A stretch of 64,000 bases of DNA, from contig NC_081392.1 of NCBI RefSeq assembly GCF_030684315.1, positions 682,001 to 746,000 on the forward strand. The letters are read 5' to 3'. Under the pieces are notes generated by a model. That model made no database searches. It had not been told where the DNA came from and saw only the letters and a list, made by a program, of their open reading frames with translations. Positions 610 through 35,574 of this stretch are shown in pieces. The position numbers and the translations under genes are program-made. Each line of letters starts with the position of its first letter. Position 1 is the first letter of the stretch. Source of the stretch: Stegostoma tigrinum. Taxonomy: Eukaryota.

Positions 610-819
610 ATAATGGGAATGGCAGATGCTGGAGAATCCAAGATAGCAAAGTGTGGAGCTGGATGAACAGCAGGCCAAGCAGCATCTCAGGAGCACAAAA
701 GCTGATGTTTCGGGTCTAGACCCTTCATCAGAGAGGGTCTAGGCCCAAAACGTCAGCTTTTGTGCTCCTGAGATGCTGCTTGGCCTGCTGTGTTCATCCA
801 GCTCCGCACTTTGTTATCT
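610..819. mobile_element. Penelope-like terminal fragment forming a fold-back (inverted repeat), with 14-bp target-site duplication
   Basis: Left half (about 638-724) is the reverse complement of the right half (about 735-819). CACATAGTTGAGTG flanks it at 596-609 and 820-833. The same terminal sequence occurs at about 24975-25068 and 10975-11085. Confidence 0.75.
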
Positions 820-1165: not shown

Positions 1166-1746
1166 AGTTCAGCTGCAGCCAATGTTAACCTTTGTTATGT
1201 TTAAAAATTTATCCAATGTCTCTACACTGGCACAGTTAATTAAAATTACAATATTTAAAAGACATTTAGACTGGTACATGGGTCGGAAGGGTTTTGAAGG
1301 ATATGGACCAAATGTAGGTAAATAGAACTAGTTCAATTTTGGATATCTGGTTGGCATGGACAAGTTGGGTCAAAGGTCTATTTTTATACTGTTTGATTCT
1401 ATAACTTTAAATATTGTATATTTACTAGAACTGCAATTAGTCCAGTTGAATATGATACTTTTTTGTTGTATTGCCTTGCATTCTTGCTCAACATTCAGAG
1501 ACCAAATTCAATAATTCTGTTGTGCCTATGTTATCTCTATTTCTGCTTATGTTAGGGATCTTCAGTTATGTTGTCTCAAGGCAATGAATTAACACATTTC
1601 CTCAAGGGCAATGAATTAACACATCTTCCACTGTAAAGATCATACTTATTTTACCAAGTTCCTGTGTTTCAACTCCCTCAACCAAACCCTGCATAAAATT
1701 ATTAATTTAAACAACTTTCTCGAGCACAGGGAATATAATCACTTAC

Positions 1747-1790
1747 CGAAAATGACCAGCTTCGTCCCATTTCCAAAATAAGCTTCGTTA
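1747..1790 (-). CDS. TRBJ: TCR beta joining segment, apparently functional (NEAYFGNGTKLVIF)
   Basis: FGxGTKL motif followed by G|GTAAGT donor (1741-1746), preceded by a canonical 12-RSS. Confidence 0.93.
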
Positions 1791-1818
1791 CACAGTGGTA
1801 CCAAGCTGCAGCAAAACC
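1791..1818 (-). promoter_or_regulatory. 12-spacer recombination signal sequence (RSS) of the J at 1747-1790
   Basis: On +: CACAGTG (1791-1797), 12 bp, AGCAAAACC (1810-1818). Confidence 0.92.
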
Positions 1819-2739
1819 ACGCTCAAGTCTGTGTTACTAAGTTTATTCTGTTGAAGTTCCTATTATAGTTCCTAACTGGCCTTAGGGGGCATAGGATAAG
1901 TGGTGACAATTCACTCTTTAGATCCTCTTTCACTATTCAATTACATCATGATTTATTGGTATCTCAAATCCATTACCCCACCAGGATTATTTAACCCTTA
2001 ATATCTTTGCCTAACAAACATTTACCAATTTGTAGTTGAGATATTAAGTAGAGAGCCAATCTCAAGAGACTTAATGGAGCGACAGAATTCCAAATTTTCA
2101 CATTCTTCCTCAAAACAGCCTGTCTCTAATTTAAGATGCTGCAAACTCCTCCTTCCCTCTCTATCTAACTGAACATGGGTATCAGTATCTTTGTATATAG
2201 GTTCTCAAGTTCTCTAATGAACTTAACAGTGATTATATCACTGTTTATTGTTTTATACATTTACTTAGACAATGTAACCAGTGCTGGTCATGTCACCCTC
2301 ATCATAAAATAATATGCTTATTCTCTTCTAGGAATGAGGTTACAAGTGGCATTTTCTCTGGACTAGTTTTGCAGAGACCCACGTAATGACTTGGGAACTT
2401 AGGTTTCAATCTGACCAGGGGTGATGACAGAATTTGAATTCAACAAAATCTGGAATTGGAAGTCTAGAGATGACCTGAATCCATTGTAGTTAAACGTCAT
2501 CTGGTTCACTAATGTCCTTTTAGGGAAGAAAAACTAATCTGCCCTATAGGCCACAGCAATGTAGTTGACTTTTTAGTGAATTACAGCCCTTACAGGGCAG
2601 GCAAGTCATTCAGGTACAAGCGCAAATTGTTATTAGCAGTAAATGGTGACCTAGTAAGTCAGGTCGCAGGCCCCATCATTTTTTTTTCTAAAATCTTGAC
2701 TTTACCCCTCATCATTTTTAAAATTGCATATTGTCATGG

Positions 2740-2873
2740 ATTCTGATCAGCACTAGAACTGAAATAAATTAGACTGACCTAAGAATGTTACCTTAAATTT
2801 ACTTTGGTACTGGGACTAAGTTAACAGTCTTAGGTAAGTCTACTTTTGGTTCAGTTCTAGTTCTGATCAGAAT
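2740..2873. repeat. Imperfect inverted repeat, arms of about 56 bp, 21-nt loop
   Basis: 2740-2795 (attctgatcagcactagaactgaa...gactgacctaagaatgttacctta) pairs with 2817-2873 (taagttaacagtcttaggtaagtc...ttcagttctagttctgatcagaat). Confidence 0.9.
2800..2833 (+). pseudogene. TRBJ: Inverted, RSS-less J segment (YFGTGTKLTVL) inside a palindrome
   Basis: TAC TTT GGT ACT GGG ACT AAG TTA ACA GTC TTA G|GTAAGT on +, opposite to D and the other Js. The upstream flank is an inverted copy of its own 3' end and intron rather than an RSS. Confidence 0.8.
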
Positions 2874-3009
2874 GTTCACTTTATGTTCACTATGTTTATT
2901 TTACAGGCCAAAGTATAAGAAAAGCGTAGCCGAATTGAAGAGAATGTGGAAGACTCGGCTCATTAATCATCAATAACAGACACACTGGAAAAAAAGATAG
3001 CTGACTTAC

Positions 3010-3050
3010 CAAGAACTGTTAATTTGGTGCCTGGCCCGAAATTACAGTGA
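3010..3050 (-). CDS. TRBJ: TCR beta joining segment (HCNFGPGTKLTVL), RSS non-canonical
   Basis: FGPGTKLTVL followed by G|GTAAGT donor (3004-3009). No clean 12-RSS; 5' boundary uncertain. Confidence 0.82.
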
Positions 3051-3630
3051 CACGACTCCGTCACATGCAGCCTCAAAACGGCGTCAATTTCTAGTCTGCG
3101 TGGTGCCATTCTAATTAAATGATACCGTTATCAACTCCATGAATCCTATTCTAATCTGCATGATTCCAGGTTAATCGATCGATGCTGCAATTACCTGTAA
3201 ATCGTGTTCTAATCAATTGGTTCCATGTTTATCTCCATGTTGATCTCTGCCGATCATTTTATTATCAACGGATTCCGAATGAGTGGGTACAATTATAATT
3301 TAATTGTGTGGCTTGATAAACATAAGTTAAGATTGCGTAGTTGTATTCATGTATTGAACTGATTAGAACAATCACCCCAACTATGCTGAATTTGCCCCAG
3401 GATGGACCAGGCATCCTTCCCTTGTAAATCAGGAGAGGGTCAATGCCGACGCAGGAATTGAATATTGTTGTGAAGTGATAAATAGATGTTGTCACCGCAT
3501 TACATTGAGTGTTCTTGAGGTTATTGGCACGTTTCGAACAGTCTCTGACGTTTTAAATAGTCCAGATCTCAGGGGACTGCGAATGTATATCGCTCGGTAA
3601 GAATTTAGAGGAAGAAAGCCTTTTTCTTAC

Positions 3631-3673
3631 CTGATACCGTTAATCTGGTGCCTGTCCCGAAGTAGGTTATTCT
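3631..3673 (-). CDS. TRBJ: TCR beta joining segment (RITYFGTGTRLTVS), RSS degenerate
   Basis: YFGTGTRLTVS followed by G|GTAAG donor (3626-3630). No CAC heptamer found upstream. Confidence 0.82.
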
Positions 3674-4088
3674 ACATCAACAGTTCATATTAGGCCAACA
3701 CCTTCGACCAGTCATCTAAAAGTGGACTGTTGGCGCAATTACCAGTTACTGGTCAAGTCAAGATAGCACATAAAAGATAGTGGGACTCAAAAAAGGCTTT
3801 ATAACAGAGGAGACACATTCGAATTCTGCCAAGGAAGTCGCATCAAGTGGTGTAAGAAATGGTCGCGCGATTCTTCGCCAGGTTTGATCGGGAGAAAAAA
3901 GACAAGCAGCGTGCTGGAGTTGGGATAAAGAGTGATCAATGCTCAGATAAAATTACACAAAAATCATGCATTTTGTTTCGTTAGAAGTGCCTTGCAGTTT
4001 CGTGGTCCTTCACTGAACCACTTTGATTGAAGTAGGATAACAGCTCCTTCACCTCGTTACCACTGCTCTTCTGTTGAGCTTGTTTCCA

Positions 4089-4127
4089 GGTTTTTGTACA
4101 GCGGTTGCATTGGATTTTATCATAGTG
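4089..4127 (-). promoter_or_regulatory. 3' 23-RSS of D
   Basis: Minus strand: CACTATG, 23 bp (4098-4120), ACAAAAACC (perfect nonamer). Confidence 0.95.
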
Positions 4128-4141
4128 GTCCCTGTTGTCCC
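4128..4141 (-). CDS. TRBD: TCR beta diversity segment GGGACAACAGGGAC
   Basis: Flanked by a 5' 12-RSS and a 3' 23-RSS, the TRB/TRD configuration. Begins GGGACA like conserved vertebrate TRBD (GGGACAGGGGGC). Open in all three frames (GTTG, GQQG, DNRD). Confidence 0.95.
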
Positions 4142-4169
4142 CACAGTGAAATGTTCTCATACAAAAATA
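4142..4169 (-). promoter_or_regulatory. 5' 12-RSS of D
   Basis: On +: CACAGTG (4142-4148), 12 bp, ACAAAAATA (4161-4169). Confidence 0.95.
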
Positions 4170-4187
4170 AAAGTGGGGTATGAAAAG

Positions 4188-4262
4188 TATTTAAGAGCCT
4201 CTTAAATGGCTCTGCCGAGCTTGAGTCGTGATGTCATTTGGGATTGACGTGCTGGCAATTGG
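4188..4262 (-). promoter_or_regulatory. Putative germline D-beta promoter
   Basis: TTAAATA TATA-like (4188-4194, minus), CRE-like TGATGTCA (4229-4236) and TGACGT (4245-4250), CCAAT (4258-4262, minus), immediately 5' of the D 12-RSS. Confidence 0.55.
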
Positions 4263-6499
4263 TTAGATCATGGTGGACTTCACCAAACTCTTCTGTAACT
4301 TGATACGTAAGAATACGGGGAGGACTCGTCAGCAACGACATGGAGACTTTAGGATGCCATGTTACACCAGAGCTTGTTAATATGGATCAGGAAACCAATA
4401 ATTTCATGAGGCAATTGTCTCCCCTAACATGTACTATACTGTTATCACTTCAACTGATCTTACTTGCAGATGCAGTCCTATTCCTATTATGTATTCCCTG
4501 TTACGAATGTAATTCCGTTCCTTAACGAGATGCTAAAATATTGAAATATACATGTACCTCGGGGCTTACAACGTTCTATTTGGTTTTAATTGTAATATAA
4601 TGAACACATTGCATGACACTTTCTTTAGCTTTGCATCCATTGTTCCTCTAATCGCTGTCGTATTAGTACAGTTACGCAACTAAATCATGCTGACTTGCTT
4701 TTACCTGATTTTGTATACTGATTTCTTGCTCAATATTGAATATGATTGCCTATGTAACCAATACTGCAATTATTCTTCTGGAATGTTAACAAACTATTAT
4801 TTTCTCCATTTGCGATTTTAATATTAACCCATTATTACATTGAGAACTTCTAAGACTGGAAAGGAATTAGGTTCGACAACATGTGTTTAATGCATACAGG
4901 TCTGGAATCTATTTCATAGAAAGAAACATGGTGGCATTGGGCGAGGTGCAAAAATGATTTTCAAAGACAGAAACTGAATGGCTGTACCTATTGGGAATCA
5001 AAGTTCAGATTGGCACACCTATTTCCTGGAAGAGACAAACTGGTGGTGACGGCACGTTTGTCAAATGGTTTGTTAGTGTCGGCGTAGGGAAAATGTTGAG
5101 AGTCCAAAATATGTAAATAAACGTTGGTATAAAATAGTGAGTCTATATAATAGACGATGCAACTGAGAACATGTACAAGCATGCTCCAGATACTATAAAC
5201 CTTTTTTTAATACTTAAGGCTTATTCCCAACATGTTTTAGTTGAGTAATGTAGCTGATTACAGCCTACATACACGACCGAAGGGTGAGGTGGTGGTCGGG
5301 TTGGGGGTGGTGTGGTGGTGGAAGCAACTGTAAAATTCATTGAAAAGTATTGTGACTTTTGTTTTATTATTCTTGCGTGAGAGTAGGCCATCGTTGGCAA
5401 GGCTGCATTTGTTGTCTCCCTCGGCCAATTCAGAGGATATTGCTCTGAGTCTACAGTCACTTAGGGGCCAGACAAGGCAAGGATGGCAAATTTTCTTCCT
5501 TATAGGATATTAATGAGCCAAATGATCTTTATGTGTATATTGACGTTCGACAGTTTCAAATTCCATTTGTTTAGCAACTGGAATAATCATGTCAGTTGTG
5601 ATGGTACTGAATGCCTGGGCAGATTAAATAAGTTGAGTAGCCTATTCCTGCTTCTAATGTGTATGTTCGTATTTTTGTATATTATTAAGTTAAATGAGCT
5701 TTATGAAAGTAAGCTGTTGTTGAAGAATGCAGCAGCGACAAAGGACTTGCAGTGGTTTTTGACAAAGGGTCCACGATGGCTCCACAGATTTTTGAAAGAT
5801 CTCAATATGCCTTATCATGTTTACCTCAGAAATTATTGTTTTATTCTTTTTAAATTAAGTAATGGAATATTCCATGAAGGCATGCTCAAAAAGTGGTGTG
5901 AGTTTTTATCAATGTCAGAACAGAGTGAATGAATCCTGTGAATGAATTAAAAATAAAGAATAGAGTGAATCTTTGAGTGAATTAGGACATGGGAGCCAAA
6001 ACATTGGCACTGACTCTGAAATCCTAACCAAAATCAATTAGCATTAACCTCACAACTATTCAAGTGAGATTTATTTACTTACTGGCTGACATGTAATGAA
6101 ATAATTCATATGATATTTGTCTTTCTCAGAAAGATAAGTACAACCAGATATCTCAACAAAGAATGTGCACTTATTTTACATCTTTCGCATCCAGAAGGGT
6201 TTTACAGCAATGATTTACTTTGATTGTTCTGCTTCATTTCAGGGGGCAGGCACCAATTGCGCACAAATGTTCCCACAAGCAAAACATTGATCGTTGGTCA
6301 GGAAATCTGATTTTAATAATGTTAGTTGAGGGAAACGTATCGGCCCCAAAACAGCTGGCAGAATTTGTCCTGCTCATCATCTAACTGATGAGACACATTT
6401 TCTTCCGTTGAAGATGTCAGAGAGACTTTCAATTTAAGATCTTTTCCTAAATTAAATCACTTTGAAGATGCACGTAGTACTGAGCTTTTGGTAGTGTAG

Positions 6500-8490
6500 T
6501 AATACAATCCTCTGACAGTGCTCCACCTCCTTGGCACTAGCTAGCCAAGAGAAGTTAGTGGTGATAGATTGGGGACAGTCCACATCACAGTAGAGAAGAT
6601 GTTGGAAGTAATAGAAGCATGAAGGTGAATAAATCTCCTGCTCCTGACCGATATATCCAAGAATCCTGCAGGAATCTAGGGAATATTTTGCAGGGGCCCT
6701 GGCTGATATATTTCCGTCATTGTTAGCCATGGGTGAGGTTCTGGAAGACTGGAGGGTAATGATTGTTGTGCCTTTATTCAAGGAAGGCTGCAAGGCAAAA
6801 TCTGGGAATTATAGACCAGTAAGCCTAACATCTGTGATCGGTAAGTTACTTGAGAAGATTCTGAAGGACAAAATATACATGCAGTTGGAAAGACAAGGTT
6901 TGATTAGGAGTAGTCAGCATGGCTTTGTGCGTGGAAGATCATGCCTCACAAATTTGTTGAAATTTTTTGATGAATTGGTCAGGAAGATTGATGAGCGCAG
7001 GGTGGTAAATATAATCCAAATGGATTTCTGTAAGGCCTTTGATAAGGTTTCACACAGCAGGCTGTTCTAGAAGATTAGATCGCATGGAATCCAGAGAGAG
7101 CTGACAAATTGGTACATAAAAGACTTGATAGTAGGAAGCAGAGAGTAATAGTGGAAGGATGCTTGTCAGACTGGAGGCCTGCGTCAAGTGTGCCTCGGGG
7201 TTTGGTGCTGGGCGCATTGTTGTTTGTTATCTATATCAATGATTTAGACGAGAATTTAGGAGACATGACTAGTAAGTTTGTGGATGACACTAAAATATCG
7301 TGGACAGTGAGGAAGGTTATCAGAAATTGCAACAGGATCTTGATCAGCTGGGGCAGTGGGCAGAGAAATGTCAAATTGAGTTTAATATAGATAAGTATGA
7401 GGTGGCGCATTTTGGAAAGTCAAATCGAGGTAGGAATTTCATGATGAATGGTAGACCCTTAAGGAAAACGGTGGAACATAGGGACCTTGGAGTTCAGGTG
7501 CACAGTATCTTTAAGTGGAGTCACAGAGAGACAGGGCAGTGAAGAAGGCTTTTGGTACACTGGCCTTCATCAGTCAGGGCATCGACCATAAAGGTGCGAA
7601 CAAACCGAAGTGTTTCGGGTTTGGTGACCCTTCCCCAGAACCCATTTAGCACTGTCCACAATATTTTAGTGTCATCCACAAACTTACTAATCATGCCTTC
7701 TACATTCTCATCTAAATCATTGATATAGATAACAAACAACAATGGGCCCAGCACCAAACCCTGAGGCACACCACTAGACCTTCAACTCTGACAAGCATCC
7801 TTCCACTATTACGCTCTGCTTCCTACGATCAAGCCAAACCAGTTCTGAGGCTTTTCAGCAACTTTGTTCCTGATTTACACCATCCACAGTTCTTTTGGTT
7901 TTTATAGAAGTTGGGAGGTTATGTTACAGTTGTATAGAATGTTGGTGAGGCCCCACTTCGTTTATTGTGCTCAGTTTTGGTCATCTTGCTATAGCAAAGT
8001 TGTTATTAAACTGGAAAGAGTGCGGATGAAAATTTACAAGGATGTTACCAGTATTCAAGGGATTGGGTTACAGGCAGAGATTGGACAAGCTAGGACTTTT
8101 TTAAGAGCACAAGAGACTGATGGGGGATATTATAGAACTGTAAAAGATCACGAGGGGCGTGGATAGGGTGAATACATTCAGTCATTTTCCCAGGGTTGGG
8201 GAAACGAGGACTAAACAGCATCTGTTTAAGAGGAGGAGCAATACATGGGAACAGGAGGGGCTTTTTTTTACACAGAGGGTGGTACGCATATGGGATGAGC
8301 TGCCAGTGGAAGTAGTTGAGGTATGTACATTGACAACATTCAAAGGTATTTAGGCGAATACATAGACAGGAAAGAAACAGAGGACATGGGCCAGGTGCAG
8401 CAAAATGGAATTAGACTGGATGGATATTTTGGTTGAATTGGACCAGTTGGGCCAAAGGACCTGTGTCCATGCTGTAGGACCCTATGACTC
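6500..8490 (+). mobile_element. CR1-clade LINE, decayed ORF2 (reverse transcriptase) and 3' end
   Basis: ORF fragments GNYRPVSLTS, QHGFVRGRSCLTNL, MDFCKAFDKV, FVIYINDLD, LVRPHFVYCAQFWS, FFTQRVVRIW. Confidence 0.9.
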
Positions 8491-18382: not shown

Positions 18383-18684
18383 ATCACTTGCAGCGCAGAA
18401 ATAGATCGCCGTATCACTCTGGTCTAAAGTGAGAATTTTTAGAATGGACGTTTTCGGATTGCGTCTCACCACATCGAATCGCGTCTCGAATCCTGCCTCG
18501 AAGGTCGGTTTATTCCCAGATACGTCGATCACCACAAGATGCAGGCCCTGTCCAGTATACTGCCGGTACCAGAGCATTGTAATGGAATCAGTGTCTTCCT
18601 GTTGACAGGTTAGCGCTGCGGTATCCCCTCGGCCCACAGTTAACACTCTGGGAATCTGCGACACTGAAACACATGCACAGCAGT
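18383..18684 (-). CDS. TRBV: TCR beta V exon, intact ORF (non-canonical RSS heptamer)
   Basis: cttcag acceptor; VSQIPRVLTVGRGDTAALTC...MLWYRQYTGQGL...RFDVVR...LKILTLDQSDTAIYFCAASD. Confidence 0.93.
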
Positions 18685-35099: not shown

Positions 35100-35574
35100 C
35101 ACGGTGACACAAAGAGAGGGTGCAGCTTAACTAAAACCCCAAAGGCATGTCACAGCTGTGAGAACTGAAATCAGACTGTGCTTCGTCCTATTGAGGTATA
35201 TTTTGCAGAGTGAAATTGTTTTGATGAGAACACCAGCCGTGTTCAAATGGAGATTCAGAAATTGCGTATTGGGTGCTGAATCCAATGGTACAGGGTATTT
35301 GCAAGCGTGCTATCTGAAGTGATTCGTTAACATTAACTGAGAGGCTAGGAGTCTTTGTGAAAAACAGACCGCCGAGTAACCTCTTAGATGCCTTTAAAGG
35401 TAGGGTTGAACGGGATGCACGTAGATAAAACCATAGCAATATTTTCAGATAATGGTAACACTTTTATCAATGCTATAAGGTTTTTTGAGCAAGTGAGAAA
35501 AAACACGGCGACTTTTTTTAATGCACTGATGCTAAGTGAAAAGCAGGGACCGACAATTGCAGCAATGTTCAACG

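What the first reader, a model, noticed from the sequence alone, without database searches (positions are those of the whole stretch)
2740..2873. J segment locked in a fold-back palindrome, inverted and without an RSS
Seen: a complete J (YFGTGTKLTVL with GTAAGT donor) lies on +, opposite to the D-J cluster. In place of its RSS is an inverted copy, about 56 bp long, of its own 3' half and intron, reading FKVTFL-G/GTCAGT on minus. The fold point is near the J coding end, where RAG makes hairpins. Inference: it may derive from a germline RAG-cut coding-end hairpin opened asymmetrically (a very long P-like palindrome), or from replication template switching. It would also form a stable stem-loop in DJ-C pre-mRNAs that span it.
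Basis: partly seen in the sequence, partly recalled or inferred. Interest (0 to 1): 0.7.

Follow-up and report, generated by a model that had tools for sequence, protein, structure and literature searches.

The report
Shark TCR-beta J killed by fold-back
In a shark-type T-cell-receptor beta locus, one joining segment sits back to front inside a 134-base fold-back repeat with no recombination signal in front of it; it is likely a fossil of one old DNA-copying slip in a cluster where most neighbouring segments have also decayed, so it is real but likely an ordinary gene loss.

Summary
The structure is real. Arms 2740-2795 and 2817-2873 match at 49 of 57 columns around a 21-nt loop. Contigs from two DNA samples span it without a difference. 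It is single-copy. It is the third J of a minus-strand TRB D-J-C cluster in which only 1 of 9 J segments is canonical. The left arm faces C and is likely the original; the plus-strand J is likely the inverted copy. An inverted repeat around an inverted spacer is the published 1-3-4-2 template-switch pattern (PMC5453318), and a 73-77 nt copy is long but within the reported range. A plain RAG P-nucleotide origin fits poorly: the axis lies inside the J, there is a loop, and reported P tracts are 1-7 nt. None of 102 other J motifs checked is folded. A RAG trigger is not excluded: a weak RSS remnant lies 14 nt outside the arm, and neighbouring J2 is damaged at its heptamer border. No outgroup sequence or RNA was available. 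The scan's notes show no look-alike on other DNA.

The parts
2740..2795 (-). Left arm: 3' half of J3 (KVTFL-G), mutated donor GTCAGT (2778-2773) and 33 nt of intron; faces C; likely the original copy
2796..2816 (+). Loop (inverted spacer), 21 nt, carrying I-Y-F-G-T-G of the J on the plus strand only
2817..2873 (+). Right arm: KLTVL-G, donor GTAAGT (2834-2839) and 34 nt of intron; likely the inverted copy
2797..2839 (+). Inverted J reading (I)YFGTGTKLTVL with intact donor and no RSS upstream
2872..2896 (+). 11-nt tandem repeat (2.5 copies) at the outer junction of the right arm
2888..2915 (+). Candidate left-behind 12-RSS of the ancestral minus-strand J3 (heptamer CACTATG, poor nonamer); weak, 5.5% of background windows score as well
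3004..3049 (-). J2 (FGPGTKLTVL, donor intact); heptamer has lost the first C (TACAGTG) and lies 2 nt from F, 15 nt shorter than its paralogue in the other cluster
3625..3685 (-). J1 (YFGTGTRLTVS, donor intact), no recognisable RSS
1741..1818 (-). J4 (NEAYFGNGTKLVIF) with canonical 12-RSS and donor; the only canonical J of the cluster
4089..4169 (-). D segment (4128-4141) with 5' 12-RSS and 3' 23-RSS

Best explanation
A single-copy J segment of a shark-type TRB cluster lies inverted and signal-less inside a fold-back repeat, likely made by one germline template switch during replication, and it is predicted to be unusable. Shown: the arms, the loop, the polarity of the J, the missing RSS, the single copy and the decay of the cluster. 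Inferred, reading the minus strand: the polymerase left its template at or just after the J's RSS (point 1), copied 73-77 nt of the opposite strand from about 40 nt past the J's end back to just 5' of YFG (points 2 to 3), and returned to the original template at the K codon (point 4). One event of order 1-3-4-2 gives an inverted repeat around an inverted spacer, which is what is seen. The plus-strand J cannot be targeted for lack of an RSS; a join at the candidate old RSS would meet a stop in all three frames and a mutated donor. The loss was likely tolerated because a second cluster 73 kb away has mostly intact J segments. The arms have since drifted apart by about 12%.
For: Geometry: YFGTG is present once, on the strand opposite to the cluster, between two copies of the J 3' half plus intron. 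This matches the definition of type 1-3-4-2, 23% of 794 human-chimp events (PMC5453318 passages). Copied length is below the reported maximum of 128 nt (PMC7954356 passages). Both arms come from one J: they share 29 of 34 intron positions, against 14-22 of 34 for 23 other TRB J segments, none of which matches the J core at more than 23 of 31. Single locus in the genome. 8 of 9 J segments of the cluster are defective, while 6 of 8 in the opposite cluster keep FGxG and a GT donor. No J-wide process: 0 of 79 J motifs in a 120-kb array on C55 are inverted or folded (best self-complement score 30 against 106), and no fold-back touches the other 23 TRB J segments. All three frames from the candidate heptamer stop before the left donor.
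Against: No ancestral or outgroup sequence was seen, so the switch points are reconstructed and not observed. 73-77 nt is far above the median of 12 nt. The only single-copy fold-back among 15 in 323.5 kb sits on a J segment, which a position-blind process would rarely give (though the site was picked because it is on a J). All 3 differences that can be polarised fall on the left arm while the inverted J stays intact (P = 0.125). The outer junction lies 14 nt from a candidate heptamer, and J2 is also damaged at its heptamer border, which a RAG trigger would predict.
Confidence: 0.65

Rival explanations
1. Germline RAG activity started it: RAG nicked or cut at the J3 RSS, and the break was resolved either as a long hairpin-derived palindrome rejoined to its own signal end and later trimmed at the centre, or by a template switch begun at the nick.
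For: Germline RAG joining with hairpin intermediates is reported for shark Ig light-chain genes (PMC2193156 passages). A candidate heptamer lies 14 nt outside the right arm, or about 3 nt if the 11-nt tandem repeat arose later. J2 has lost the first heptamer base and 15 nt of coding sequence at the heptamer border relative to its paralogue, as an open-and-shut joint would. Single-copy fold-backs are rare here, 1 in 323.5 kb.
Against: The axis is inside the J with a 21-nt loop. P tracts are 1-3 nt, none above 7 in human TRB, typically 1-7 nt without Artemis; the shark germline example has 2 nt. A second, one-sided central deletion is needed. The RSS candidate is matched by 5.5% of 766 background windows. 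0 of 79 plus 0 of 23 other J segments show the pattern. J1, J2 and D remain, so no D-J join took place.
Confidence: 0.2
2. A RAG-independent double-strand break was repaired by end joining with a templated inverted insertion, or a longer palindrome formed and later lost part of its centre.
For: An 11-nt tandem repeat sits at the outer junction, as templated end-joining can leave (own knowledge). A weak extension of arm similarity beyond 2740/2873 appears in the local alignment.
Against: Needs more steps than one switch for the same outcome; the extension is gapped, AT-rich and may be chance.
Confidence: 0.09
3. The hairpin or the inverted J is kept by selection, for example as an RNA stem-loop or small-RNA precursor in germline TRB transcripts, or as a plus-strand J for the opposite cluster's C.
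For: Very stable fold. The inverted J keeps FGxG and its donor while the left arm carries all 3 polarisable changes. A second C lies on + about 82 kb away. Template switches are reported to create de novo miRNAs (PMC10710096, search listing only).
Against: 3 of 3 on one side has P = 0.125. No RSS on +. Rfam hits reach 18.9-31.8 bits against gathering scores of 58-211 for the four miRNA families listed. Seven substitutions and a gap have opened the stem; none restores pairing.
Confidence: 0.05
4. Assembly artefact (fold-back chimera).
For: Fold-backs are a known artefact class (own knowledge). X1 or X2 may be the sample the window was assembled from.
Against: Arms differ at 8 of 57 columns. Independently assembled contigs of two samples cross it unchanged at even depth. 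One raw read of run X7, from another study, appears to cover 2751-2898, inferred from bin depths.
Confidence: 0.01

Closest known systems
Short-range template switch, type 1-3-4-2 / 3-1-2-4 (four-point model; PMC5453318, PMC7954356)
   Same: Inverted repeat separated by a spacer that is inverted relative to the ancestral strand; local; copied length within the reported range.
   Different: Copied fragment is long (73-77 nt against a median of 12); arms are 12% diverged, far older than the ape events; no ancestor in hand; it hits an antigen-receptor J.
Germline RAG-joined shark Ig light-chain genes (NS4; PMC2193156) and P nucleotides (PMC3528771, PMC2193825)
   Same: A germline lesion at an antigen-receptor segment of a cartilaginous fish, with an inverted copy of coding sequence.
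   Different: No V-J or D-J join; palindrome at least 8 times longer than reported P tracts; axis inside the J with a loop; product is not a receptor gene.
Chiloscyllium punctatum TRB D2-J-C2 cluster (PMC10322711, supplementary file 16)
   Same: Same two-cluster, back-to-back layout around shared V genes; J08 and J09 fall at the distances of J2 and J4 from D; interval 1252 against 1263 nt.
   Different: No J is listed in that interval on either strand; five of seven J segments there are called functional, against one of nine here. Only coordinates were seen, not sequence.
Palindromic MITE-like repeat family of this genome (label inferred)
   Same: Fold-back of similar size; 14 of 15 fold-backs in 323.5 kb.
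   Different: Those have 45-108 other hits each in the fetched DNA; this one has 0 and is made of J sequence.

Membership tests
Functional TRBJ segment | FGxG-T-x-L-x-V framework open | tested here: met
   FGTGTKLTVL on +
Functional TRBJ segment | GT splice donor after the coding end | tested here: met
   GTAAGT 2834-2839
Functional TRBJ segment | 12-RSS directly 5' on the same strand | tested here: not met
   no GTG on + between 2649 and 2802; worst RSS score of 17 J segments
Functional TRBJ segment | Same strand as the C of its cluster | tested here: not met
   C exon on minus about 9.8 kb before the window start
Functional TRBJ segment | Used in rearranged transcripts | not testable with these tools
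   no run on record as RNA was offered
Template switch type 1-3-4-2 | New inverted repeat in unique sequence | tested here: met
   49 of 57 columns, single copy
Template switch type 1-3-4-2 | Spacer inverted relative to the ancestral strand | tested here: met
   YFGTG lies on + while the cluster and the in-place 3' half lie on minus; ancestral strand inferred from the other 8 J segments
Template switch type 1-3-4-2 | Copied fragment within reported length range | tested here: met
   73-77 nt against median 12, maximum 128
Template switch type 1-3-4-2 | One event rebuilds the derived sequence from an observed ancestor | not testable with these tools
   no relative's sequence found
Template switch type 1-3-4-2 | Short identity at the switch points (not required by the model) | tested here: inconclusive
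   ATT begins both the outer arm end and the retained J 5' codons; post hoc, three bases
RAG P-nucleotide / germline coding-end hairpin | Palindrome centred on an untrimmed coding end, without loop | tested here: not met
   21-nt loop, axis on the F-G codons
RAG P-nucleotide / germline coding-end hairpin | Length of 1-7 nt | tested here: not met
   at least 56 nt
RAG P-nucleotide / germline coding-end hairpin | Joined to another coding end or flush to its own signal end | tested here: inconclusive
   D, J1, J2 intact in place; weak heptamer 14 nt away, about 3 nt without the tandem repeat
Palindromic transposon (MITE-like) | Many copies in the genome | tested here: not met
   one locus; 0 other hits
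Known miRNA precursor family | Rfam gathering score | tested here: not met
   best 31.8 bits against 144
Known miRNA precursor family | Processed small RNA | not testable with these tools
   no small-RNA run offered

The most novel reading that the evidence does not exclude
Stray RAG cutting in the shark germline knocked out the D-proximal J segments of this TRB cluster one by one: J2 as an open-and-shut joint that lost 15 coding bases at its heptamer, and J3 as a RAG-triggered fold-back rejoined next to its own signal. This would extend germline RAG activity from Ig genes to a TCR locus and make it a cause of segment loss.
Probability: 0.15. Interest if true: 0.65.

Novelty: new member of a known kind. 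Interest (0 to 1): 0.27.

Why it matters
As most likely read, it is a tidy fossil of a known mutation type and one more lesion in a decaying, redundant TRB cluster; its use is as a lineage marker and as a warning for annotation, since motif searches will call the plus-strand J intact. If a RAG trigger were shown, it would be a rare record of germline RAG damage at a TCR locus, a question so far documented for shark Ig genes, and it is testable by aligning about 1.3 kb from a few related shark genomes.

Tried and rejected
Search for relatives' sequence: 10 runs listed, all one organism label; no RNA holder listed. Scan notes: 0 look-alike stretches. One degenerate J pattern in metagenome contigs: 0 matches. 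Longer protein relatives of the C exon: 0 of 132 candidates at E 1e-15. PDB sequence search showed only a generic C1 domain, with Ig and TCR beta chains mixed, and did not decide the isotype. Bisulfite raw reads gave 5, 2 and 0 reads in X7, X8, X9 and X10 gave 0 contigs: too thin to test polymorphism. X5 and X6 do not cover the palindrome. The 15 other exact matches of the D core: the 5 on C53-C55 were fetched and have no RSS, 10 were not examined. Dropped before J counts: two weak profile hits without an FG motif (window -21231 and C59:6181341). Dating with 7e-10 per generation (PMC10587355) gives about 1e8 generations by hand arithmetic from a per-arm distance of 0.068 (95% range of the pair 0.054-0.29), which is implausibly old; rejected as a clock, kept only as 'not recent'. 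An 8-nt match to the J's YFG codons on minus near 2908-2915 was considered as a remnant J start (event type 3-1-4-2): no heptamer lies upstream of it and it overlaps the candidate nonamer; unresolved. Head-to-head fusion of two different J genes and insertion of a J from another cluster were rejected on intron identity. One nurse-shark TCR paper asked for by DOI was not held. No paper describing this element was seen in nine full-text searches (two were aimed at it); subscription journals are largely missing from that library.

Full report
Observation. The plus strand reads (I)YFGTGTKLTVL from 2797, with F at 2803 and the donor GTAAGT at 2834-2839. The minus strand reads FKVTFL-G to 2779 with GTCAGT. 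The arms are 2740-2795 and 2817-2873, identical at 49 of 57 columns (7 substitutions, 1 gap), around a 21-nt loop. The stretch folds at -60.2 kcal/mol as RNA, z about -10, and none of 200 shuffles matches it. On + the nearest GTG upstream of F is at 2646, so no heptamer can precede the inverted J.

It is real. The genome holds it once. One contig of run X1 (sample S1) covers 2503-4400 and one of X2 (sample S2, same study) covers 2503-3898, both with 0 other letters and 0 gaps at even depth; either may be the source of the assembly. In bisulfite reads of X7, from another study, bin depths point to one read across 2751-2898 (alignment not shown, 5 reads laid in all).

The locus. The window lies in a TRB locus of a cartilaginous-fish type. 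That label rests on the D with 12/23 signals, 12-RSS J segments, and the match in layout to the published C. punctatum TRB map; the NEAYFG-type J as a TRB mark is recalled; the PDB search did not decide the isotype. Cluster A runs on minus: D 4141-4128, J1 (F at 3661), J2 (3040), this J3, J4 (1777), five more J segments at window -164 to -3969, and an open C exon near -9800. Cluster B runs on plus beyond the window: D at 75048, eight J segments, C at about 85300. A third cluster with seven J-like segments lies on contig C59. In cluster A only J4 has a canonical RSS, framework and donor; J1 has no recognisable RSS, J2 a broken heptamer, J5-J9 altered donors, altered FGxG or a stop. In cluster B, 6 of 8 keep FGxG and a GT donor. 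An earlier scan note on a retrotransposon in the RSS of one downstream J agrees with this decay (I saw that J's poor nonamer but did not check the insertion).

Which copy is which. The left arm continues into the intron towards C and is likely the original; the loop and right arm are likely the inverted copy. Both derive from one J: they share 29 of 34 intron positions, while 23 other TRB J segments give 14-22 of 34 in gapped alignments and at most 23 of 31 over the J core. The three differences within J and donor are all derived on the left arm by comparison with paralogues (P = 0.125 for one side), which is not enough to claim constraint.

Mechanism. Read on minus, the order is: upstream DNA, inverted (intron, J 3' half, YFGTG), then J 3' half, intron. 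YFGTG occurs once and on the wrong strand. [quoted passage not shown] The copied piece would be 73-77 nt; the ape set has median 12 and maximum 128 (PMC7954356, passages). Simple intra-strand fold-back from a J coding end would leave YFGTG on minus, which is not seen (inference). A RAG coding-end hairpin gives a loop-less palindrome centred on the coding end; P tracts are 1-3 nt with none above 7 in human TRB (PMC3528771, passages), typically 1-7 nt without Artemis (PMC2193825, passages), and 2 nt in the shark germline example (PMC2193156, passages). That route needs an exceptional tract and a second one-sided deletion.

Evidence for a RAG trigger. A candidate 12-RSS for the ancestral J lies at 2888-2915, 14 nt outside the right arm. 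Its score is in the range of two cluster-B J signals but is reached by 5.5% of 766 background windows. An 11-nt tandem repeat at 2872-2896 blurs the junction: with it the heptamer keeps a J-like 5' stretch (HKVN, continuing in frame into IYFG if the shared ATT is the switch point), which argues against a cut at the border; without it the heptamer is about 3 nt from the arm, which would fit one. J2 aligns to its cluster-B paralogue with a 15-nt gap starting at the heptamer border. In 323.5 kb of fetched DNA there are 15 fold-backs, 14 of them repeat-derived, and this is the only single-copy one. Against this, 0 of 79 J motifs in 120 kb of the large J array on C55 are inverted or folded, nor are the other 23 TRB J segments.

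Relatives. No sequence from another species was obtained. Supplementary file 16 of PMC10322711 (part 1 read; also passages and section 17) gives coordinates only. Calibrating on the first J of the other cluster, J08 and J09 would have F at 1074 and 2326 nt from D2, against 1088 (J2) and 2351 (J4) here (hand arithmetic). The interval is 1252 against 1263 nt and lists no J. This hints that J3 is not functional there either, but indels of 5-25 nt and larger occur in the other intervals and the list may be incomplete, so it cannot date the event. Supplementary files 12-15 and 17-19 of that paper were not searched and may hold more.

Consequences. A join at the candidate old RSS meets a stop in all three frames and a GTCAGT donor. 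The hairpin would lie 130 nt past the J2 donor in germline and D-J1/D-J2 transcripts, and is removed by D-J4 joining (inference). Rfam gives only generic hairpin hits far below threshold. Expression was not testable.

Verdict. Real, old, single-copy, and likely an ordinary template-switch loss of one J in a redundant cluster (0.65). A germline RAG trigger is the live rival (0.2) and is decidable with outgroup sequence. I saw no description of this element in nine searches of the held library. PMC5931798 (passages) and PMC10587355 (passages) did not bear on the structure; PMC10710096 was seen as a search listing only.

Noticed in passing
window 3004-3075 (minus): J2 has heptamer TACAGTG only 2 nt from the F codon; against cluster-B J1 it lacks 15 nt from the heptamer border, like an open-and-shut joint. 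A nonamer-like stretch lies 22-23 nt from that heptamer.
   Followed up: partly
G000:C51:671888-686200 and 757000-767600; C59:6154580-6172520: Three TRB D-J-C clusters in this genome: two back to back on C51 (C exons 56% identical) and a third on another contig (C 43% identical). The published C. punctatum map lists two.
   Followed up: partly
window -3969 to 3661 (cluster A): 8 of 9 J segments are defective although D, J4 and the C exon look intact: a cluster reduced to one usable J.
   Followed up: partly
window 3850-4142: Small runs X5 and X6 hold contigs only here (apart from a repeat), between D and J1; one ends in what I recall as a Tn5 adapter. It may mark open chromatin at a D-linked promoter; library type is not on record.
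   Followed up: no
window 641-819 and 13 other places in fetched loci: An abundant palindromic repeat family of 90-200 nt (45-108 hits each in 323.5 kb), MITE-like.
   Followed up: no
window 18415 (minus), 25927 (minus), 58062 (plus), 35100 and 42517 (plus): V segments in both orientations between the two clusters; the one at 18415 has a non-canonical heptamer, and strong 23-RSSs at 35100 and 42517 follow V-like ends not caught as open V exons.
   Followed up: no
window 7124-7833: Large inverted repeat with arms of 52 and 122 nt at 92-93% around a 340-nt core; likely repeat-derived.
   Followed up: no
G000:C55:850001-970000: Array of 79 J motifs, all on minus, likely the TRA/TRD J region, with tandemly duplicated blocks.
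   Followed up: partly
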